This document shows, piece after piece, positions 9,865-49,377 of a stretch of DNA of 64,000 nt (the stretch's first letter is position 1; each line of letters opens with the position of its first letter). This DNA comes from a virus (lineage: Duplodnaviria; Caudoviricetes): IMG/VR virus record IMGVR_UViG_3300025016_000004. One strand, written 5' to 3'. The notes beneath the pieces were generated by a model. The model was not told the origin of the DNA. It saw only the letters and a program-made list of their open reading frames with translations, and made no database searches. Position numbers and translations under genes: made by a program.

Positions 9865-10185
9865 AATATATTTGTTTTTTATATATATAAATATGCCGAA
9901 AATTTGGAAAATCAGACAAAATGTAGTATAATTGCGTTAAGAAACAATTAAATTACAACAAATTAAAAAAAAAGTGGGGATTTCATTTGGTAATCCCAGA
10001 TTTTATTTTTATGGTTGTACCAACACCTCATGATAAAATATTAGAAAATAGTAGAAAAGATTGTAGTTGTAGTAATGTTAAGACCGAAAGGTTTATGTAT
10101 ATAGATGCAATTAAATATTAAAAATTATTTAGTTATTTAAAATAATTTACATACCTTTGAAGAGTTAATATAAAATTTTTTGAAA

Positions 10186-11469
10186 ATGATTACTAAAGAA
10201 AATGGTTTAAGGTATGCAAAATTAGTCCATGTATCAGTTGATAATGGGTTAACATCTCAAAGTAATAAGGTGTATATAATGGAAGAACAACCTGATGGTA
10301 GAATCAAATGTGATTATGGTCGAGTTGGTAAAGATTTAGTGACTGTCTACAAGCGGTCACACGAATGGAATAAAGTTCTTCAAAGTAAAACAAACCCTAG
10401 AAAGGGTTATCAAGATGTTACAGACCTTATTGCTGAAACCACAACAACCTCTTCAAATAGTACATCATCAAAAACAGCTGATATTAAAGATAATCAAGTA
10501 AAACAATTATTTGATGATTTAATGGCTTATGCAAATAAATCAATCCAAAGAAACTATAAGGTTACACAAGATGCTGTAACTCAAGCACAAATTGATGCCG
10601 CTCAAGAAGTTTTAACAAAAGCTTCAGGATTGGCTAAAGTTGGTGTTAATGTTAAAGAAATCAACGACTTATTAATAAGACTGTACACCATCATTCCAAG
10701 AAAAATGAAAGATGTTCGTGATTATTTGATTGATGCTGCGGATGATAAAGATGATTTAGATAAGATAAAAAACTTCTTAGCTAACGAACAAGATACATTA
10801 GATACAATGGCTGGTCAGGTAAAACTTATTAGTCAACAAAAGGGTTCAACCATTGATGATGATTTAGATGGTGATGGGGAAATTACCTTATTAGAACAAA
10901 TGGGGTTAGAGGTGTCTGTTGAAACTGACCCTAAACAATTAGAATTGATAGATAGATTGGTTGGACCAACTAAAGATAGACTTAAAAAGGTTTATAAATG
11001 TGTTAATAAGAAAACACAAGCTGTATTCGATAAACATTACGGTAATGCTAGATTTAAAGACAGAAAATTATTCTGGCATGGGTCTAGAAATGAAAATATT
11101 TTTAATATAATCCAATCAGGATTATTAATTAGACCTTCAGGTGCAGTTCATACGGGGTCAATGTTTGGTGATGGAATATATTATGCTAATAAGGCTCAAA
11201 AATCATTAGGTTATACTTCAGTAAGAGGTTCTTATTGGGTAAATGGTAGTTCTAATAAGGGTTATTTATTGTTATATGATGTTTATCATGGAAAACAAAA
11301 AGATATTTATAAACATGATTCTAGTTGTTACTCATTATCTCAAAAAGTAATGGATGATGAAGGTTATGATTCAGTTTATGCACATGGTGGAGCGGATTTA
11401 AGAAATGATGAATTCATTATTTATAACCCAAAACAGTGCACTATTAAATATATAATTGAGATAGTCTAA
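10186..11469 (+). CDS. PARP-like ADP-ribosyltransferase (WGR-like, regulatory and catalytic domains)
   Basis: FWHGSR, GSMFGDGIYYAN..KSLGY, NDEFIIYN (H-Y-E triad). Confidence 0.92.
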   Translation: MITKENGLRYAKLVHVSVDNGLTSQSNKVYIMEEQPDGRIKCDYGRVGKDLVTVYKRSHEWNKVLQSKTNPRKGYQDVTDLIAETTTTSSNSTSSKTADIKDNQVKQLFDDLMAYANKSIQRNYKVTQDAVTQAQIDAAQEVLTKASGLAKVGVNVKEINDLLIRLYTIIPRKMKDVRDYLIDAADDKDDLDKIKNFLANEQDTLDTMAGQVKLISQQKGSTIDDDLDGDGEITLLEQMGLEVSVETDPKQLELIDRLVGPTKDRLKKVYKCVNKKTQAVFDKHYGNARFKDRKLFWHGSRNENIFNIIQSGLLIRPSGAVHTGSMFGDGIYYANKAQKSLGYTSVRGSYWVNGSSNKGYLLLYDVYHGKQKDIYKHDSSCYSLSQKVMDDEGYDSVYAHGGADLRNDEFIIYNPKQCTIKYIIEIV

Positions 11470-16525: not shown

Positions 16526-16666
16526 TTTAAAAAAAAGTATAAAAAAACTTGTTTTTTATTTAAACAATTACTATATTTGCACATATATATTAACAAGAGA
16601 TAGGATAATACATCTGGACAAACCCAAATGGGAAAGGATTGAATCTGAACAGTCTCTTAAATAAAA

Positions 16667-16750
16667 ATGAAAATGAAAACTTTAGTAACTTTATTATCTT
16701 TATGTCTGTTGGTCGTGTGTACTGACACATCGAGTTATGTAATTACTTAA
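16667..16750 (+). promoter_or_regulatory. Leader peptide A (MKMKTLVTLLSLCLLVVCTDTSSYVIT) of tRNA-operon attenuator
   Basis: Leu/Val/Cys-rich uORF between promoter (16572) and terminator; CATCGAG in the uORF is complementary to the terminator 5' arm. Confidence 0.85.
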
Positions 16751-16782
16751 AGGATTTATTTATATATTTTTTAAATTGTTAT

Positions 16783-16814
16783 AAAAGCTCGATGTTAACG
16801 CATCGAGCTTTTTT
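16783..16814 (+). terminator. Attenuator terminator A
   Basis: AAAAGCTCGATG-TTAACG-CATCGAGCTTTTTT, 2 nt before tRNA-Cys. Confidence 0.9.
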
Positions 16815-16816
16815 AT

Positions 16817-18308: not shown

Positions 18309-18578
18309 TGAAAATCTACACGCAATGGCCAAAGATTTAAACATCAAACGATGTTGATTCCATAAGAATCACTATGATATACCAAAAAAACGTATTGAAG
18401 AAATTACCAAATAATGCACATTGGTATCCCCTAGAGATATTCATAAAATAATACATAATCTATAATACTGGTATTTAGTCGAATAAGTTTTGTAGCTAAA
18501 ATAATAACAATTATTTTAGCTAAACTATTGATTAATACTATTTATTGAATATATTAGGTATATAAAATAATTAATATT

Positions 18579-18773
18579 ATGACACAAACAGAAAAAGCTG
18601 AAAGATTTGAAAGCTTAACAAGAGAAAGTGATGTTATCCAAAGGGAGATATCAAAATTACAATCAGCAAATGCTGGTATTAACACAACATCCGAAGAATA
18701 CGATAATAAACTTAATCATTTAAGACATAGGTTATCAATTTTAGAACAAGAGATGGTAAAATTATTTATATGA
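18579..18773 (+). CDS. Hypothetical coiled-coil protein
   Basis: ORF track. Confidence 0.65.
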   Translation: MTQTEKAERFESLTRESDVIQREISKLQSANAGINTTSEEYDNKLNHLRHRLSILEQEMVKLFI

Positions 18774-19084
18774 ATCTAAATGAAAATTTAAACGAAGAAT
18801 TAGTTGAAGCATTAAAAAATATCTACCCAATTAGAGAAAATCTAAGGAAGGAGTTGTTAAAAACTTATGATGAAGAATTATTAGATAAATTAAATGCTTT
18901 GAATAAAATGATTGAGAATGCTGAAATTTTAATCAACAAATCTCAAGATGTTAAAAAGTTTTATGCTGAACAATACCCTGATTATGTCGATGAAAACAAT
19001 CATATCAACGAAATAGGTATAAATAGAATAAGCATTTTGAAAAAAAAATGGAAAAAATTAGGCTATCTAAAAAAGAATTCATAA
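18770..19084 (+). CDS. Hypothetical protein
   Basis: ATGA overlap with the upstream gene. Confidence 0.65.
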   Translation: MNLNENLNEELVEALKNIYPIRENLRKELLKTYDEELLDKLNALNKMIENAEILINKSQDVKKFYAEQYPDYVDENNHINEIGINRISILKKKWKKLGYLKKNS

Positions 19085-19110
19085 ATTAGCCGAATTAAAA
19101 TTAGAAAAAC

Positions 19111-19560
19111 ATGAAAAAAACAGCCCTACTTGTATTATTAATGTTGACATTAACCTTTAGTTTTGGACAAACCAATGGGTCAGTAATTATGAACGATTCA
19201 CTTATTGTTCAATATCTTGAGGAATTCGTTGACGAAGCCGCCCAAAATGGCTACGATATTCAAGAACAATTATTAAGTAAAGTTAGTTATATACTAATAG
19301 CAAAAGAGGATAAGCAAATTGAAGGTTTATCTGAAATTGATTTGAATAACAAATTAATCTTATTGGACCCCAAAGTTCGTTTAGATAGATTAATATTAAA
19401 AGCAAGGCTATATAGAGAGTTATGTCACGCTTTAGGTGTACCATATGACACTGGTAGTGTTATGATGGATAGGGTTAAAGAAAAAGGTTTTTCTTATGTG
19501 GCATTTGATGATTCTGAAATACTTAGCATTGAATTAGGTAAAGTTCTGAAATTAATTTAA
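19111..19560 (+). CDS. Secreted protein with degenerate zincin-like motif
   Basis: Signal peptide MKKTALLVLL..; RELCHALG in place of HExxH. Confidence 0.6.
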   Translation: MKKTALLVLLMLTLTFSFGQTNGSVIMNDSLIVQYLEEFVDEAAQNGYDIQEQLLSKVSYILIAKEDKQIEGLSEIDLNNKLILLDPKVRLDRLILKARLYRELCHALGVPYDTGSVMMDRVKEKGFSYVAFDDSEILSIELGKVLKLI

Positions 19561-19708
19561 AAAATCAAGGTTTTAATTAATTGAAAATCAAATAATTTAA
19601 AAATAATTTAAAAATAATTGCAAAAAAATTTGTTTTATATTGAAACATTTACTATATTTGCACTATATATTAATAACGGTATTAATAAAGTACCACAAAA
19701 TAAAAGTA

Positions 19709-19804
19709 ATGAGAAACTTAATTAACATATTTGAAAACGAATTTTTCGCAGCCGAGGCAGATTTTAGCTTGGGTAGGATGAGAATTGTCAAAAATGAAAG
19801 TTAA
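19709..19804 (+). promoter_or_regulatory. Leader peptide B (MRNLINIFENEFFAAEADFSLGRMRIVKNES) of tRNA-operon attenuator
   Basis: F/E/A/D block; GGATGAGA (19776-19783) is complementary to the terminator 5' arm; promoter at 19653. Confidence 0.88.
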
Positions 19805-19835
19805 GTTATTTAAAAAATAATAAAAACAATAAGAC

Positions 19836-19869
19836 AAAATCTCATCCAAATCGGATGAGATTTTTTTTT
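19836..19869 (+). terminator. Attenuator terminator B
   Basis: AAAATCTCATCC-AAATC-GGATGAGATTTTTTTTT, 9 nt before tRNA-Asp. Confidence 0.9.
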
Positions 19870-19878
19870 GTTATAAAC

Positions 19879-19951
19879 GGATGTGAGGTGTTGTAGGTAA
19901 CATGCTTGACTGTCACTCAAGCGATTGCGGGTTCGACCCCCGTGACATCCG
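19879..19951 (+). tRNA. tRNA-Asp(GTC)
   Basis: CTTGA-CTGTCAC-TCAAG, G73. Confidence 0.9.
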
Positions 19952-20036
19952 CAAAATTAAATTTGATTATCATGGGATAAATAAAGAAGTGATTAAGAAT
20001 TTCCTACTTAATCGAGATGAAACTGGAAGAGAGATA

Positions 20037-20294
20037 ATGTTCTATCCAGAAACAGGAAAAAAGTATTATATTGAATGGATAGGTGATGGTTATAGTAAAT
20101 GGGGAGATTTCGACCCAGTAACTAAAAAATTCACTGGTAATTATGGAACTAAATATAGAGGTTCAGTAACACCTAAAGAATCTGTAATCACTAAAGAGAA
20201 TGGATTCAATGATATTCATGAAGGTAAAGGTTCAGCGTATGAACACGTAAATTGGTTGCATAACCAATGGAAAAAAGAAAATGGTTATGGGTAA
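20037..20294 (+). CDS. Hypothetical protein (start uncertain)
   Basis: The upstream part of the listed ORF overlaps tRNA-Asp. Confidence 0.5.
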   Translation: MFYPETGKKYYIEWIGDGYSKWGDFDPVTKKFTGNYGTKYRGSVTPKESVITKENGFNDIHEGKGSAYEHVNWLHNQWKKENGYG

Positions 20295-20457
20295 GATTGA
20301 TAAAAAGAGAAATAGATTAATTGAGAGAATCAAAATGTTAGAAGATGAATTAACTTTATCTTTAACTAAAAAAACCTCTAATACTGTGGAAATTAATGTA
20401 CCACTTCAACAAAGAAAGATTCAGGAGTTGAAAGAACAATTAAGAGGGTTAATGTAA
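20287..20457 (+). CDS. Small hypothetical protein
   Basis: MGKIDKKRNRLIERIKMLEDEL.. read from sequence. Confidence 0.55.
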   Translation: MGKIDKKRNRLIERIKMLEDELTLSLTKKTSNTVEINVPLQQRKIQELKEQLRGLM

Positions 20458-20463
20458 CCCTCA

Positions 20464-20554
20464 AACAGTACCAGCGCATAACGGTTGGTGTACCTGACTG
20501 TCACTCAGGTTTGGTTTATCCATGTAGCGGGTTCGACTCCCGTTGTAGTTGCCA
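20464..20554 (+). tRNA. tRNA-Asp(GTC), long variable region, weak acceptor, encoded CCA
   Basis: CCTGA-CTGTCAC-TCAGG; GCGGG-TTCGACT-CCCGT. Confidence 0.7.
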
Positions 20555-20615
20555 AAAATAAAACAAAGAATCATTGTTTTAACCCTTGTCGGGGAGGTTT
20601 TTAAATGGTTCATAA

Positions 20616-20686
20616 GGGGACTTCGAATAATGGTAGTTCGTATGGTTGAAGCCCATAAGGTAAGAGTTCGACTCTCTTAGTTCCCA
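20616..20686 (+). tRNA. tRNA-Phe(GAA)
   Basis: GGGGACT/AGTTCCC, loop TTGAAGC. Confidence 0.85.
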
Positions 20687-20693
20687 CAAATTT

Positions 20694-20767
20694 GCTGCCG
20701 TAGTATAGCGGTCAAGTACACAAGGCTTTCAACCTTGCAGACGCCAGTTCGAATCTGGTCGGCAGTA
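20694..20767 (+). tRNA. tRNA-Glu(TTC)
   Basis: GCTGCCG/CGGCAGT, loop CTTTCAA. Confidence 0.92.
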
Positions 20768-20870
20768 CAAATAATAATGGTCGGGTAGAGCATAATAAGT
20801 TATTTGACATTTTGGTAGAATTTATTTTTTAAAAAATGTGTCTTTTAATAAAAACTTCATATTTATTAAT

Positions 20871-21362
20871 ATGAGTAGAGACGAAAAGATTATAGAAATG
20901 TATAACGCTGGTGAAACAGCCACAGTTATATCAAAAGAATTAAAAATAGGTAGGAAAACAGTTTATAGAACTTTAGATAAGTTTAATATAACATTACATA
21001 AAAATAAACCTAATAATTGTCTAGTGTGTGGTAAGACATCTAAAAAGAAGTTATGTGGTACGTGTAACACTAATCTAAGGAGATATAGAGTCAAGAAATT
21101 AGCTGTTGAATATCTAGGTGGTGAATGTAAAAGATGTGGTTGGGAGGGTGATGTATCAGGATTTGATTTTCATCATAAAGACCCAAATCAAAAAGATTTT
21201 AATCCAAGTGGTTTAAACTTGGCTAATAAATCTTGGGAAAGGGGTAAAGAAGAATTGGATAAGTGTGAATTATTATGTGCACTGTGTCACAGATTAGAAC
21301 ATAGCACTTATGGGATTTTAGAAAAAATAAATTTAGAGTATAAAGGTAAAACCTTTCTATAA
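20871..21362 (+). CDS. HTH plus HNH endonuclease
   Basis: C..C zinc fingers, FDFHH..KCELLCALCHRLEH; stop abuts tRNA-Phe. Confidence 0.88.
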   Translation: MSRDEKIIEMYNAGETATVISKELKIGRKTVYRTLDKFNITLHKNKPNNCLVCGKTSKKKLCGTCNTNLRRYRVKKLAVEYLGGECKRCGWEGDVSGFDFHHKDPNQKDFNPSGLNLANKSWERGKEELDKCELLCALCHRLEHSTYGILEKINLEYKGKTFL

Positions 21363-21435
21363 GGCTTGGTAACTCAGTTGGTAGAGTAGTGGACTGAAAA
21401 TCCATATGTCACTGGTTCGATTCCAGTTCAAGCCA
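21363..21435 (+). tRNA. tRNA-Phe(GAA)
   Basis: GGCTTGG/TCAAGCC, loop CTGAAAA. Confidence 0.93.
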
Positions 21436-21585
21436 CTATACCAAAAAGTTATTGAAGAACCATGTGTCGTTGGTTCGATTCCAACTCCGACCACAAATTG
21501 TGATAGTTAATCCTCTTATCTATGAAGTCTTAGGTAATGAAACTAGTCTCGGTAGACAATGTGCACATTGATTCTACCCAAATAT

Positions 21586-21657
21586 GGCCCATTCGTCTAA
21601 TGGTTAGGACGACAGGTTTTCGACCTGTAAACGAGAGTTCGACTCTCTCATGGGCTA
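21586..21657 (+). tRNA. tRNA-Glu(TTC)
   Basis: GGCCCAT/ATGGGCT, loop TTTTCGA. Confidence 0.92.
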
Positions 21658-21689
21658 CAAGTTTGCAAACTAAGGTTATTAATTTCCTT

Positions 21690-21755
21690 GGGGGTATCGT
21701 CTAACTGGTTAGGATAGCTATTGGTAAGATATGGGTTCGAGTCCCATTGTTTCCA
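21690..21755 (+). pseudogene. Degenerate tRNA lacking anticodon arm
   Basis: D arm GTCTAACTGGTTAGGAT and T arm ATGGG-TTCGAGT-CCCAT present. Confidence 0.5.
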
Positions 21756-21767
21756 AAAAATTAATAT

Positions 21768-21842
21768 GGTTTATCGTCTAAATGGCAAAAGATACTGTGC
21801 GTGTCAGTACAGAGATGGAGGTTCGAGCCCTCCGAAAACCGC
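21768..21842 (+). tRNA. tRNA-like gene, identity uncertain (8-nt anticodon loop containing GTC/GTG)
   Basis: GGAGG-TTCGAGC-CCTCC T arm; GGTTT/AAACC acceptor. Confidence 0.45.
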
Positions 21843-21931
21843 AATATGGGGGGCACATGTACCAAGGCAAGGCGTTGGACATTTACCTAAACTTATGTGG
21901 TCGTTTCGATTATTTTGTGATATTTATTAAT

Positions 21932-22573
21932 ATGAAAGAATGTCCAAAGTGTGGTAATAACCACCATAAAAAGGGTAAGTTTTGTTCTAGGTCTTGTGCT
22001 AATAGTAGAACTTGGTCCAAAGAAGATAAAAGTAAAAAATCTGAAATCGCTAAAAAATCTGAAAAAGTTTTATTGGCCAATCGTGACCCTGAAAGAAGAA
22101 AGAATCTCTCAATATCAGCAAAAGCCCAAGCAAAAGTTGGTAACATTAATTGGAGTAAATTACATACTAAAGATGTTATTAACAAGGCCTTAAAAACTAA
22201 AAAGCTTAAAAGGGAACTATGGTTAGATTCATTTGATAGGAGTGATAAAATTGAATACCGTAAAGCTTGTAAATTTAAATTTAGTCTTAATTCATACCCA
22301 GATAAATTTGATTTTTGGTTGATTGAAGAGTATGGCTGGTATAAAGCTAAAAATATGGGTGACAATCCAAATGGGATAAGTAGAGACCATATGTACTCAA
22401 TTAGTGAAGGATTTAAAAATGGTGTTGACCCGTATTATATTAGTCACCCAGCCAATTGTAAATTAATGAGGCATGGTGAAAATAATAAAAAAGATGGTAA
22501 AAGTAGTATTAATCTAGAAGATTTAATAAAAAAAGTTAATAAATGGGATAATAAATATGGGCCGTTAGCATAA
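21932..22573 (+). CDS. Zn-finger plus HNH endonuclease
   Basis: CPKC..FCSRSC; SRDH..HPANC..H.EN; 3' end overlaps tRNA-Ala. Confidence 0.82.
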   Translation: MKECPKCGNNHHKKGKFCSRSCANSRTWSKEDKSKKSEIAKKSEKVLLANRDPERRKNLSISAKAQAKVGNINWSKLHTKDVINKALKTKKLKRELWLDSFDRSDKIEYRKACKFKFSLNSYPDKFDFWLIEEYGWYKAKNMGDNPNGISRDHMYSISEGFKNGVDPYYISHPANCKLMRHGENNKKDGKSSINLEDLIKKVNKWDNKYGPLA

Positions 22574-22631
22574 ATGGCAAATGCTCTTCATTTGCAATGA
22601 GGAAGATTGGGTTCGAATCCCAGCGTGTCCA
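22559..22631 (+). tRNA. tRNA-Ala(TGC)
   Basis: CTTCA-TTTGCAA-TGAGG; G3-U70; bulged acceptor. Confidence 0.82.
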
Positions 22632-22805
22632 CAATGTCCGAGAGAAGGATTCGATTTCCTTTGTCTCCACAAACATTCTTTACTTATGAATATAATTTAT
22701 TATATTATATTTATGAGTAAGGATTATCGAAAATTATACGAAACTACCCACGGTGAACTACCCACACACTAAAAAGATGTGTGGGCTTCCTGCACAACGC
22801 ACAGC

Positions 22806-47552: not shown

Positions 47553-47809
47553 TGAAGATTACGTGGAATTTTAGAGTGTTGGTCACAGAACATAAACATG
47601 CTGATGGTGAAGTGGAAACTTGGTTGGCTATTCATGAAGTTTATAGTGATGACAAAAGTAACCCCCATAGTTATACAGAAAACTCAGTTGATATTTCTGG
47701 AAATACAAAAAAAGAGTTGAAGTAGCGTATTAAAAATGAAGGAATGTTTAAACAAACCTTATTTATGGGGTGATGATAGATTCCCACAAGAATATAAAAA
47801 AGGTGAGTA
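47552..47809 (+). pseudogene. Small phage gene interrupted by TAG at 47723
   Basis: WNFRVL..IHEVY..YTEN then LWGDDRFPQEY after the stop. Confidence 0.5.
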
Positions 47810-48030
47810 GTTTTACAGACCCAATTATTAAGCAACTTAGAAAATCTATTCCTGAATCTGAAGCAAGACTTAGACAGCTTAAGAAAGAGATAATACCTGA
47901 ATTCATTAAACCATATCACGTTAGGATATGTGAATTGATGGAAGGTAATCTTGAAGCTAATATAAGGTTTCTTAAAAAGATGGAAGCGTTTAAAAATGAA
48001 GAAATGACATCGAAATTTAAAAAGAAAAAA

Positions 48031-49377
48031 ATGAATAATTTAATTGGTGTTAGTGGGGGCATTAAAGCTGGTAAAGACCTTGTAGGGCAGATGATTCAAT
48101 ATATTGGTGATGAAATTGCTGAACCAACATTTGAAGGCTTTCAAGAGTTTCAAGTTACATTTACATTTACATTATATACCAAATATCAAATAAAGAAATT
48201 CGCTGATAAACTTAAAGATTGCCTATGCCTTATTTTAGGTTGTACTAGGGAACAACTTGAAGATAGAGATTATAAGAATACTGAATTAAGTGAAGATTGG
48301 TGGTATTATAAAGGAAATACTGGAATTTATCTTTATAATACTCCTTATAAAAGTAATAAGAAATTACCTCTTATTAAATTAACTCCTAGACTTTTACTTC
48401 AATTATTAGGTACTGAATGTGGTAGAAATATTATTCATCCAAATATTTGGTGCAACTCGCTTTTTTCTGACTACACAGGAGATATTGAAACTTGGAAAAA
48501 TATTAAAAGTTATGAAGGATTATACCAAATCTCTTCTTTTGGTAATGTAAAAAGTTTGGATAGAAAAATAACTTATGGTAATCATAAAGGAGAATACCAC
48601 ACTAGAAAAGGACAATTATTAAAACCTACTTTAAGTGGTGGATATGCAACAGTATCGTTAAGTGGAATTACTTACACTGTACATAGTTTAGTGGCTAGAC
48701 ATTTTTTGAAACAACCTGAAGGTAAAGATTATGTGATTAATCATATTGATTACAATAAAGAAAATAACTTTTATAAAAATCTTGAGTGGGTTAAACAAGC
48801 AGATAATGTAAGATATAATTATAAAGTAGGTAAAGCTAATATAGGAGAAAAGCAAAAAGATGCTAAACTTACAGATACTATTGTTTTACAAATTAAAGAC
48901 TGGTTATTTTCTGGAAAATATACCAATACTGAAATAGCAAGAAGAGTTAATGTATCACCTACAACTATTACAGATATAAAAAAAGGAAGGAAATGGAAGC
49001 ATGTAGGTAAAGAAATAGAAGAAATTCAACCAATATTACCTGAACCTACCTCTAACTGGATTATAACTGACGTTAGATTTCCTGAAAATGAAGGTAAAGC
49101 TGTTAGTGATAGAGGCGGTTTATTGATTGGCGTTAGACGAAAATTTGGGTTAAGATTTCCAGAGTATGCATTTCGTGAAATGCCTGATGACCCATATGCC
49201 ATACCATCAATGCTACAGAATGATGACGAAAAGTTATTTGATACTTTAACTCATGAGTCCGAGGTAAATATGGGTGACCATTCATGGTGTGATGTAGTAA
49301 TAGAAAACAACGGAACGGTTGAAGAGTTATTCAATGAAGTTTTGAAAGCTGTTTATTATAAAAAAGAATTAGTATGA
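48031..49377 (+). CDS. dNMP kinase-like protein with in-frame NUMOD4-HNH-HTH insertion (frame open from 47770)
   Basis: GVSGGIKAGKD, LQLLGTECGR..IW, WIITDVRF; insert WKNIKSYEGLYQISSFG..VHSLVA..NHID..NLEW. Confidence 0.85.
   Translation: MNNLIGVSGGIKAGKDLVGQMIQYIGDEIAEPTFEGFQEFQVTFTFTLYTKYQIKKFADKLKDCLCLILGCTREQLEDRDYKNTELSEDWWYYKGNTGIYLYNTPYKSNKKLPLIKLTPRLLLQLLGTECGRNIIHPNIWCNSLFSDYTGDIETWKNIKSYEGLYQISSFGNVKSLDRKITYGNHKGEYHTRKGQLLKPTLSGGYATVSLSGITYTVHSLVARHFLKQPEGKDYVINHIDYNKENNFYKNLEWVKQADNVRYNYKVGKANIGEKQKDAKLTDTIVLQIKDWLFSGKYTNTEIARRVNVSPTTITDIKKGRKWKHVGKEIEEIQPILPEPTSNWIITDVRFPENEGKAVSDRGGLLIGVRRKFGLRFPEYAFREMPDDPYAIPSMLQNDDEKLFDTLTHESEVNMGDHSWCDVVIENNGTVEELFNEVLKAVYYKKELV

What the first reader, a model, noticed from the sequence alone, without database searches (positions are those of the whole stretch)
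19630..19869. Attenuator B: Phe/Glu/Ala/Asp leader upstream of the Asp-Phe-Glu-Ala cluster
The uORF at 19709-19804 has 11 of 12 consecutive codons in F/E/A/D. GGATGAGA (19776) duplicates the terminator 3' arm and so competes for TCTCATCC. A weak 1:2 helix (AATTTTT/GAGAATT) covers the control codons.
Basis: partly seen in the sequence, partly recalled or inferred. Interest (0 to 1): 0.8.

Follow-up and report, generated by a model that had tools for sequence, protein, structure and literature searches.

The report
Leader-peptide attenuator gating phage tRNAs
An uncultured large phage places a 31-codon "test" gene rich in Phe, Glu, Asp and Ala codons, plus a switchable transcription stop, directly in front of its Asp/Phe/Glu/Ala tRNA genes, so it probably makes these tRNAs only when ribosomes read those codons slowly; this control is classical for amino-acid genes, but I found no description of it for tRNA genes.

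Summary
At 19630-19869 a Bacteroidota-type promoter drives a 31-codon ORF. Its block FENEFFAAEADF is the best Asp/Phe/Glu/Ala 12-codon window in all six frames of the 64 kb. A 12-bp intrinsic terminator follows, and tRNA-Asp starts 10 nt after its U-tract. No other consensus promoter serves the Asp/Phe/Glu/Ala cluster.

GGATGAGA inside the ORF pairs with the terminator's 5' arm as an antiterminator. It also pairs with the control codons as an anti-antiterminator. I found about 48 related leaders in viral and metagenome contigs. All relatives with enough downstream DNA carry Phe/Glu/Asp/Ala tRNAs. Region 2 covaries with 24 different terminator stems (own -11.1 vs cross -7.2 kcal/mol; 0 of 20,000 permutations). 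ORF indels are multiples of three. The variable control block stays 81% cognate while its residue order changes.

Two sister units in the window (Cys/Val/Leu and Pro/Lys/Thr/Tyr/Gln/Gly) have the same design. This scan has already noted the same device for those sister units and in other phage genomes. Five literature searches on the topic found no publication. No RNA or experimental evidence was obtained. Best reading: a trp-type, multivalent leader-peptide attenuator used for tRNA-supply homeostasis (confidence 0.75).

The parts
19616..19675 (+). Promoter block. The -33 TTG is at 19630-19632 and the -7 TATATTTG (TAnnTTTG type) at 19653-19660. About 60 nt are nearly identical to the promoters of sister units A (16549-16579) and C (32478-32508).
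   Evidence: The -7 box consensus of Flavobacterium/Bacteroides is quoted in PMC7641319. The transcription start is inferred, not mapped.
19678..19694 (+). Small 5'-UTR hairpin (GGTATT / AGTACC).
   Evidence: Role unknown.
19709..19804 (+). Leader ORF of 31 codons, with an A-rich upstream region and no Shine-Dalgarno sequence.
   Evidence: ATG and TAA are kept in all relatives and indels are 3 or 6 nt only. Bacteroidia do not use SD sequences (PMC6847099).
19730..19765 (+). Control block FENEFFAAEADF: 11 of 12 codons are read by the downstream Phe, Glu, Asp and Ala tRNAs.
19738..19749 (+). Region 1: control-codon nucleotides that pair with region 2 in the terminating fold (19743-19748:19779-19784 and 19738-19740:19785-19787).
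19751..19774 (+). P1 hairpin (GCC.AGGC / GCTT.GGT) at the apex of the leader hairpin. It is a possible RNA polymerase pause hairpin or a stacking partner of the antiterminator.
   Evidence: One pair shows GC 19 / GU 8 / AU 4 with none broken. The stem is kept in 28 versions while the loop and the encoded peptide change. The function is inferred.
19775..19789 (+). Region 2: pairs either with region 1 or with the terminator's 5' arm (19776-19783:19840-19847 plus 19785-19789:19833-19837).
19831..19869 (+). Intrinsic terminator: 5' arm 19836-19847 (region 3), loop 19848-19852, 3' arm 19853-19864 (region 4), U-tract to 19869.
19879..19951 (+). tRNA-Asp(GTC), the first gated gene, starting 10 nt after the U-tract.
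   Evidence: 47.8 bits
20464..22631 (+). Rest of the gated cluster: Asp(GTC) 20464-20554 (28.1 bits, odd insertion), Phe(GAA) 20616-20686, Glu(TTC) 20694-20767, HNH endonuclease ORF 20871-21362, Phe(GAA) 21363-21435, Glu(TTC) 21586-21657, tRNA-like 21690-21755 and 21768-21842, ORF 21932-22573 (phrog_23051), and Ala(TGC) 22559-22631. No consensus promoter lies inside it.
16549..16815 (+). Sister unit A: the same promoter, leader MKMKTLVTLLSLCLLVVCTDTSSYVIT, an in-ORF copy (ACATCGAG) of the terminator's 3' arm, a terminator, then Cys/Val/Leu tRNAs.
32478..32718 (+). Sister unit C: the same promoter, leader MRNYTTYTKQYQPKGGKSQGQLSIRCSDITEF, an in-ORF copy (TCAACTG) of the terminator's 3' arm, a terminator, then Pro/Lys/Thr/Tyr/Gln/Glu/Thr/Gly tRNAs.

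Best explanation
This is a ribosome-mediated (leader-peptide) transcription attenuator of the trp/his/phe type. It is multivalent for four amino acids and gates a phage tRNA gene cluster rather than biosynthetic genes. Transcription starts at the Bacteroidota-type promoter (-7 box at 19653-19660), and a ribosome translates the 31-codon leader.

If Phe, Glu, Asp and Ala codons are decoded quickly, the ribosome covers region 2 (19775-19789), or sits between regions 2 and 3, while RNA polymerase makes regions 3 and 4. The terminator 19836-19864 then forms and transcription stops 10 nt before tRNA-Asp. If the ribosome stalls in the control block 19730-19765 because cognate aminoacyl-tRNA is scarce, region 1 is masked and region 2 is free. 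Region 2 then pairs with the terminator's 5' arm (8 + 5 bp), the terminator cannot form, and polymerase reads into the Asp/Phe/Glu/Ala tRNA genes. The outcome is negative feedback on tRNA supply.

What is shown: the anatomy, the alternative pairings and their covariation, the coding signature, the conserved cognate composition, and the linkage to the F/E/D/A tRNA set. What is inferred: the transcription start, that the ORF is translated, the stalling, the kinetic race, the direction of the response, and any pause role for the P1 hairpin.
For: (1) Codon match. The control block is the single best D/F/E/A 12-codon window in six frames of 64 kb (binomial P 1e-6). The two sister leaders match their own clusters and not each other's: own-set counts are 12/26, 12/30 and 19/31 against 1-8 for foreign sets.
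(2) Alternative folds. Nascent RNA pairs the terminator's 5' arm with 19776-19786 unless a ribosome footprint covers it, which happens with the A site at 19763-19796. Full-length RNA folds the terminator. The two states differ by only 0 to -8 kcal/mol across relatives.
(3) Significance of the antiterminator against dinucleotide shuffles: P 0.001 (A), 0.001 (B) and 0.04 (C).
(4) Family. There are 32 plus 17 leader sequences from viral and metagenome contigs. Region 2, always just after the conserved Gly codon, matches its own terminator arm across 37 distinct combinations and 24 arm cores: own -11.1 vs cross -7.2 kcal/mol, 0 of 20,000 permutations. An example of a compensatory change is GGATGAGA/TCTCATCC versus GATGAGT/ACTCATC.
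(5) The 1:2 pairing is present in every relative's leader fold and is stronger for own than for foreign partners.
(6) Coding signature. ATG and TAA are invariant, ORF indels are 3 or 6 nt, and indels after the stop are of any length.
(7) Composition is kept rather than sequence. The 19 distinct variable segments lie outside the search pattern and are 81% F/E/D/A, against 23% in the proteome and 3% and 9% in the ORF flanks.
(8) Every relative with enough DNA has Phe/Glu/Asp/Ala tRNAs after the terminator, although tRNA sequences and order have turned over, with 31 different Phe sequences.
(9) In the window, tRNA-Asp begins 10 nt after the U-tract, and no TTG-N17-23-TAnnTTTG promoter lies between 19660 and 24519.
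(10) Unit A homologues were fetched without regard to their own sequence, and 11 of 11 have the same design.
Against: There are no transcript, ribosome or reporter data, so termination, readthrough and translation are all inferred.

In this window the 1:2 duplex is weak (-2.9 kcal/mol as an isolated duplex). At equilibrium the nascent RNA prefers the antiterminator even without a ribosome, so the untranslated default may be readthrough, unlike trp.

The stop codon lies 16 nt beyond region 2, so a ribosome waiting at the stop does not cover region 2. Termination then depends on timing or on steric separation of regions 2 and 3.

In about half of the relatives, one or two consensus promoters lie between the terminator and the first tRNA. 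There the attenuator cannot be the only route to tRNA expression.

Conserved Asn (AAC) and Ile (ATA) codons in or next to the block are not cognate to this cluster.

The window's tRNA-Ala has three acceptor-stem mismatches.

Relatives were retrieved by patterns taken from the leader, so part of the conservation is by construction. The sequences are also related, so the permutation counts overstate independence.

Whether transcription and translation are coupled tightly enough in Bacteroidota is not established, as far as I know.
Confidence: 0.75

Rival explanations
1. This is a general translation-capacity sensor rather than a codon-specific one. The same terminator/antiterminator switch is set simply by whether any ribosome follows the polymerase closely, for example after host shut-off or ribosome shortage. 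In that case the F/E/D/A codons add little specificity.
For: A ribosome anywhere over or beyond region 2 blocks the antiterminator whatever the codon identity. The untranslated nascent RNA favours readthrough. The three units share one special promoter class, which suggests common control.
Against: This reading does not explain why each of three leaders is enriched for exactly the amino acids of its own cluster and not the others'. It also does not explain why the variable block keeps 81% F/E/D/A while its order changes and the ORF flanks hold 3-9%.
Confidence: 0.12
2. The element has another or an additional role. The conserved core (AAEAD-x-S-L-G-R) could act as a nascent arrest peptide. The terminated leader RNA could act in trans as a small RNA. 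The leader RNA could bind tRNA directly, in the manner of a riboswitch.
For: The core is strongly conserved at the nucleotide level, including synonymous sites. Attenuator-derived small RNAs with trans functions are known (rnTrpL, PMC6614838, listed).
Against: The conserved synonymous sites are the stem positions of hairpin P1, while loop positions and the encoded residues vary (DFS, DES, DKS, DRS, DCR). C-terminal frameshift variants keep the RNA but not the peptide (L194, L208). No T-box or other Rfam family matches at E up to 1. None of these roles explains the match to the tRNA set.
Confidence: 0.08
3. This is an ordinary small gene with its own terminator that happens to lie before a tRNA cluster. 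Under this reading the tRNAs are transcribed independently and the codon match is coincidence.
For: In about half of the relatives, consensus promoters follow the terminator. Short hydrophobic or acidic ORFs are common in AT-rich phage DNA.
Against: Three units in one window each match their own cluster. Region 2 covaries with the terminator arm, which an ordinary terminator does not need. In the window clade the tRNA starts 6-17 nt after the U-tract with no promoter in between.
Confidence: 0.05

Closest known systems
Leader-peptide attenuators of the E. coli/Salmonella phe operons: pheL-pheA (Rfam Phe_leader) and pheM-pheST (phenylalanyl-tRNA synthetase)
   Same: A short translated leader with a run of Phe codons precedes an intrinsic terminator with a competing antiterminator. 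pheM-pheST shows that a translation-apparatus gene can be controlled in this way. Sources: PMC3082878, bioRxiv 10.64898/2026.09.09.750475, and the general model in PMC1183508.
   Different: The regulated genes here are tRNA genes, not an enzyme or a synthetase. The leader counts four amino acids. The host type is Bacteroidota-like (no SD, TAnnTTTG promoter) and the element is phage-borne. There is no sequence or covariance-model similarity.
Multivalent attenuators thr (Thr/Ile), ilvGMEDA (Ile/Leu/Val) and ilvBN (Val/Leu) of enterobacteria
   Same: One leader mixes the codons of several amino acids, so shortage of any of them relieves termination. The operons are listed in PMC1183508. The mixed-codon detail is from my own knowledge.
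   Different: Those leaders sense the end products of a shared biosynthetic pathway. Here the mixture mirrors the identities of the tRNA genes immediately downstream, and separate units in one genome carry different mixtures.
T-box riboswitches
   Same: They also couple the state of a specific tRNA to a terminator/antiterminator choice upstream of translation-related genes (own knowledge).
   Different: T-boxes bind uncharged tRNA directly and need no translation. Here there is a conserved translated ORF and no T-box match.
Unpublished notes from this scan on sister units and other phages (e1-5389538, e1-5389540, e1-5389537; Caulobacter-phage units such as e1-4038560)
   Same: The design is the same: a leader written in the codons of the downstream tRNAs, with an in-ORF copy of the terminator's 3' arm.
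   Different: Those are other loci or other genomes. They are AI notes and not independent evidence. Here I re-examined units A and C only as far.

Membership tests
Ribosome-mediated (leader-peptide) transcription attenuators | Short translated ORF in the leader of the regulated transcript | tested here: met
   The ORF is 19709-19804. ATG and TAA are invariant in relatives, in-ORF indels are 3 or 6 nt only, and indels after the stop are of any length. Translation itself has not been observed.
Ribosome-mediated (leader-peptide) transcription attenuators | Cluster of regulatory codons cognate to what the regulated genes supply | tested here: met
   11 of 12 codons are F/E/D/A before Asp/Phe/Glu/Ala tRNAs, the best such window in the 64 kb. 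The variable block is 81% cognate in relatives.
Ribosome-mediated (leader-peptide) transcription attenuators | Intrinsic terminator between the leader ORF and the regulated genes | tested here: met
   A 12-bp stem with a 9-T tract at 19836-19869. A terminator is present in all relatives with enough DNA.
Ribosome-mediated (leader-peptide) transcription attenuators | Antiterminator (2:3) mutually exclusive with the terminator | tested here: met
   The pairing is 19776-19783:19840-19847 plus 19785-19789:19833-19837. Shuffle P is 0.001. Covariation spans 24 arm cores with 0 of 20,000 permutations.
Ribosome-mediated (leader-peptide) transcription attenuators | Anti-antiterminator (1:2) overlapping the regulatory codons | tested here: met
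   It is present in the fold of every relative, and own partners are stronger than foreign ones. It is weak in this window (-2.9 kcal/mol as an isolated duplex).
Ribosome-mediated (leader-peptide) transcription attenuators | Readthrough rises when the cognate charged tRNA is limiting | not testable with these tools
   This needs reporter, Term-seq or in vitro coupled assays.
Ribosome-mediated (leader-peptide) transcription attenuators | Regulated genes are amino-acid biosynthesis or aminoacyl-tRNA synthetase genes (as in all described cases I know) | tested here: not met
   The downstream genes are tRNAs and homing-endonuclease ORFs. This is the point of novelty.
Rfam leader families (Phe_leader, Trp_leader, His_leader, Leu_leader, Thr_leader) and T-box | Match to the family covariance model | tested here: not met
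   cmscan of 19560-22800 at E up to 1 lists only tRNAs and one weak tymovirus tRNA-like hit.

The most novel reading that the evidence does not exclude
Large aquatic phages of Bacteroidota-like hosts run a set of orthogonal, codon-barcoded feedback loops. Each tRNA gene cluster is gated by its own multivalent leader-peptide attenuator. The phage therefore measures the decoding speed of exactly the codons its tRNAs serve, and it switches on the matching cluster when host tRNAs run short, for instance through host shut-off, codon mismatch or anticodon-nuclease defences. This would be a form of tRNA-supply homeostasis not described in cells or viruses.
Probability: 0.6. Interest if true: 0.85.

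Novelty: new variant of a known kind. Interest (0 to 1): 0.8.

Why it matters
How phages control their own tRNA genes is largely unknown, and in bacteria tRNA genes are thought to be controlled mainly at promoters. A leader-peptide attenuator in front of tRNA genes would close a direct feedback loop in which the product (tRNA) is sensed through its own function (decoding speed). Several such units with different codon sets in one genome would give amino-acid-specific control.

The idea can be tested directly with reporter fusions or defined in vitro translation. It would supply natural, compact, orthogonal sensors of codon-specific translation speed. It also suggests how phages could answer tRNA depletion by host defences. 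The family is widespread: about 48 leaders came from lake, marine, groundwater and other metagenomes. The phenomenon is therefore not a curiosity of one contig.

Tried and rejected
- No whole genome is held for this window.
- Megablast and blastn of 18500-21800 against deposited phages found only tRNA or HNH pieces. tblastn of the leader peptide found nothing.
- The 15-nt promoter word alone hit more than 114 unrelated viral contigs and was useless. The 25-nt promoter pattern found none.
- The upstream ORF 19111-19557 has no relatives in viral contigs.
- The back-translated AEADFSLGR pattern also hit about 17 high-GC bacterial contigs. These are the antisense strand of mutL (DVNVHPAKxEVRF), so they are chance matches, and I discarded them.
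- The second pattern gave 12 loci with unrelated hits, which I also discarded.
- No hit in 185,579 bacterial and archaeal genomes.
- RNAalifold on the MAFFT alignment recovered only hairpin P1, because the terminators are out of register. I therefore tested the antiterminator with alignment-free own-versus-cross duplex energies.
- RNA evidence: runs marked as RNA hold only 0.04-0.16 of the sampled words.
- Using phage tRNA words to fetch relatives without bias was dropped because the tRNA sequences are too diverse.
- L169 is a deletion variant without a matching region 2 and was left out of the later statistics.
- Five literature searches on the topic found no paper on leader-peptide attenuation of tRNA genes.

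Full report
**Setting.** The window is AT-rich (about 30% G+C). It is phage DNA: it encodes an ATP-dependent DNA ligase, a phrog_1745 'DNA transfer protein', a dNMP kinase interrupted by an HNH endonuclease, and other phage proteins. It has no close relative among deposited phages, and no whole genome is held for it. The same DNA occurs in groundwater and aquifer metagenome runs. The window carries three tRNA clusters on the + strand: Cys/Val/Leu from 16817, Asp/Phe/Glu/Ala from 19879, and Pro/Lys/Thr/Tyr/Gln/Glu/Thr/Gly from 32777.

**The observation.**
- The ORF at 19709-19804 encodes MRNLINIFENEFFAAEADFSLGRMRIVKNES.
- In codons 19730-19765 (FENEFFAAEADF), 11 of 12 are F/E/A/D.
- GGATGAGA at 19776-19783 repeats 19853-19860 of the terminator's 3' arm.
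- The terminator is a 12-bp stem (19836-19847 / 19853-19864) with a nine-T tract.
- tRNA-Asp starts at 19879, ten bases after the tract.
- The cluster holds Asp x2, Phe x2, Glu x2 and one Ala(TGC). The Ala tRNA keeps G3:U70 but has three acceptor-stem mismatches. The cluster is interspersed with an HNH endonuclease and other small ORFs.

The block is the only 12-codon window with at least 11 D/F/E/A residues in all six frames of the 64 kb. At the window's own proteome frequency of these residues (0.233), the binomial probability is 1e-6.

**Promoter and transcription unit.** TTG at 19630-19632 and TATATTTG at 19653-19660 fit the TTG/TAnnTTTG promoter of Flavobacterium and Bacteroides (PMC7641319). 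There are 33 such motifs on the + strand. None lies between 19660 and 24519, so this promoter is the only evident one for the whole Asp/Phe/Glu/Ala cluster. The ATG has an A-rich upstream region and no Shine-Dalgarno sequence, as expected for Bacteroidia (PMC6847099). About 60 nt of the promoter are nearly identical in three places, at 16549, 19630 and 32478. Each copy precedes a short ORF, a terminator and a tRNA cluster.

**Sister units.**
- Unit A encodes MKMKTLVTLLSLCLLVVCTDTSSYVIT before Cys/Val/Leu tRNAs.
- Unit C encodes MRNYTTYTKQYQPKGGKSQGQLSIRCSDITEF before Pro/Lys/Thr/Tyr/Gln/Glu/Thr/Gly tRNAs. Its 17-of-18 window is again unique in the 64 kb.
- Each leader matches its own cluster (12/26, 12/30 and 19/31 residues) and not the others' (1 to 8).
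- Each ORF contains a copy of its own terminator's 3' arm.
- Against dinucleotide shuffles of the leader, the antiterminator duplex has P 0.001 (A), 0.001 (B) and 0.04 (C).

**Alternative folds in the window.** The full RNA (19672-19869) folds at -46.1 kcal/mol, with z -6.5 against shuffles. The fold has three parts.
- A 5'-UTR hairpin.
- One long leader hairpin spanning 19710-19812. In it the control codons pair with region 2 (19743-19748:19779-19784 and 19738-19740:19785-19787), and the apex is hairpin P1 (19751-19774).
- The terminator.

RNA ending just after the terminator's 5' arm instead pairs that arm with region 2 (19776-19783:19840-19847 plus 19785-19789:19833-19837). I then masked a 30-nt ribosome footprint at each codon in turn. 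The antiterminator forms with the A site at any codon up to 19760. It is blocked with the A site at 19763-19796. The geometry therefore fits the classical race described for trp in PMC1183508. A ribosome stalled in the control block leaves region 2 free for region 3. A ribosome that has moved on covers region 2.

There are two departures from trp. The isolated 1:2 duplex is weak here (-2.9 kcal/mol). A ribosome at the stop codon no longer covers region 2.

**Relatives.** The ORF that follows tRNA-Asp has a 74%-identical homologue on a 187-kb viral contig. Upstream of that homologue lies a homologous leader with a different terminator and a matching, different region 2. I then ran two pattern scans.
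- A pattern back-translated from AEADFSLGR found 14 viral and about 37 metagenome leaders.
- A looser pattern tied only to the N-terminal part and the start of P1 found 17 more, with different C-terminal cores.

Chance hits were recognised and dropped. The main group was the antisense strand of mutL. None of the leaders lies in the 185,579 bacterial and archaeal genomes.

**What the family shows.**
1. Linkage. Every relative with enough downstream DNA has Phe, Glu, Asp and Ala tRNAs after the terminator and the Cys/Val/Leu cluster upstream. This holds although tRNA order differs and the tRNA sequences have turned over, with 31 distinct Phe sequences.
2. Antiterminator covariation. Region 2 always lies right after the conserved Gly codon, and it changes together with the terminator's 5' arm. 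Over 37 distinct combinations and 24 arm cores, own duplexes average -11.1 kcal/mol against -7.2 for foreign arms, and no one of 20,000 permutations reaches this. One deletion variant (L169) is an exception.
3. The 1:2 pairing. In every relative the leader folds into the same long hairpin, with region 2 paired to the control codons. Own partners are stronger than foreign ones.
4. Hairpin P1. It is kept in 28 distinct versions. One pair shows GC 19 / GU 8 / AU 4 with none broken. Its loop, and hence the peptide (DFS, DES, DKS, DRS, DCR), changes freely. This explains the nucleotide-level conservation of the core, including G or C at synonymous sites in an AT-rich genome.
5. Coding signature. 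ATG and TAA are invariant. Indels inside the ORFs are 3 or 6 nt, and those after the stop are of any length. The ten 1-nt gaps lie in one alignment column near the stop codons; I read them as an alignment artefact. Two relatives have a frameshifted C-terminus with the RNA kept, so the part after the control block is selected as RNA.
6. Composition rather than sequence. The 19 distinct variable segments lie outside the search patterns (for example FENEFFA, FEADFFA, FDFEAFA, FDFAIEA). They are 81% F/E/D/A (108/133), against 3% and 9% in the ORF flanks.
7. Unit A. Its homologues on these loci were fetched without regard to their own sequence, and 11 of 11 have an L/V/C leader and a terminator.

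**Caveats.**
- The relatives are phylogenetically related and were found through leader-derived patterns. Permutation counts therefore overstate independence, and part of the conservation is by construction.
- In about half of the relatives, one or two consensus promoters lie between the terminator and the first tRNA. In the window's clade, and in some others, the tRNA begins 6-17 nt after the U-tract. The attenuator is therefore the apparent sole gate here but not everywhere.
- Conserved AAC and ATA codons at the start of the block are not cognate to this cluster. They form an outer helix of the leader hairpin.
- No RNA data could be obtained.

**Interpretation.** The best-supported reading is a multivalent leader-peptide attenuator. 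It lets transcription enter the Asp/Phe/Glu/Ala tRNA genes when ribosomes are slow on exactly those codons, which amounts to negative feedback on tRNA supply (confidence 0.75). A purely general translation sensor (0.12) does not explain the unit-specific codon sets. A peptide or trans-RNA function (0.08) does not explain the link to the tRNA set, and it is weakened by the P1 analysis and the frameshift variants. Coincidence (0.05) is hard to hold against three matched units and the covariation.

**Comparison with the known.** The device works like the pheL-pheA and pheM-pheST attenuators and like the multivalent thr and ilv attenuators (PMC3082878; bioRxiv 10.64898/2026.09.09.750475; PMC1183508). 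It meets the structural criteria of that class. It matches no Rfam leader or T-box model, and its regulated genes are tRNAs. Five full-text searches on the topic found no description of leader-peptide attenuation of tRNA genes.

Earlier AI notes of this scan reached the same reading for the sister units of this genome and for other phages, including Caulobacter phages. They served as leads, not as evidence. I checked units A and C here only in part. I class the finding as a new variant of a known kind.

Noticed in passing
window 31310-31744 (+): This stretch matches the Rfam GOLLD RNA model (RF02032) over its full length at 59.5 bits (E 1.5e-14), far below the gathering score of 150. A tRNA-like gene follows at 31885-31974. 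It lies just upstream of tRNA unit C.
   Followed up: no
window 19879-22680: The gated cluster holds paired tRNA copies (Asp x2, Phe x2, Glu x2), one of each looking less canonical. It also holds tRNA fragments (about 21440-21495 and 22632-22672), an HNH endonuclease ORF (20871-21362) and a phrog_23051 ORF (21932-22573). This picture suggests homing-endonuclease cassettes that bring replacement tRNAs.
   Followed up: partly
window 16535-16594, 19616-19675, 32464-32523: The three tRNA units share about 60 nt of nearly identical promoter sequence, including the exact word TTACTATATTTGCAC. The other roughly 30 promoter-like motifs of the window do not share it. This points to a separate promoter class for tRNA units.
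   Followed up: partly
L116, L117, L119, L120, L125, L127, L149, L165, L166, L115 (spacer after the leader's terminator): In these relatives, one or two consensus TTG/TAnnTTTG promoters lie between the attenuator's terminator and the first tRNA. The tRNAs there would have both a gated and an ungated route of expression.
   Followed up: partly
L194, L208: These leaders lack one base after the Gly codon. The C-terminal peptide is therefore different while the RNA (GGTCAACTATTGTC) is kept. The 3' part of the ORF is thus conserved as RNA and not as protein.
   Followed up: partly
L130, L132, L142, L153, L161, L162, L170, L177, L178 and others: The back-translated AEADFSLGR pattern also matches the antisense strand of the mutL motif DVNVHPAKxEVRF in high-GC bacterial contigs. 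This is a chance look-alike, worth knowing for anyone who repeats the scan.
   Followed up: yes
window 10180-11469 (+) and 47770-49377 (+): There is a 429-aa protein with a PARP catalytic domain (E 4.8e-24). There is also a dNMP-kinase-like gene carrying a NUMOD4/HNH endonuclease in its middle.
   Followed up: no
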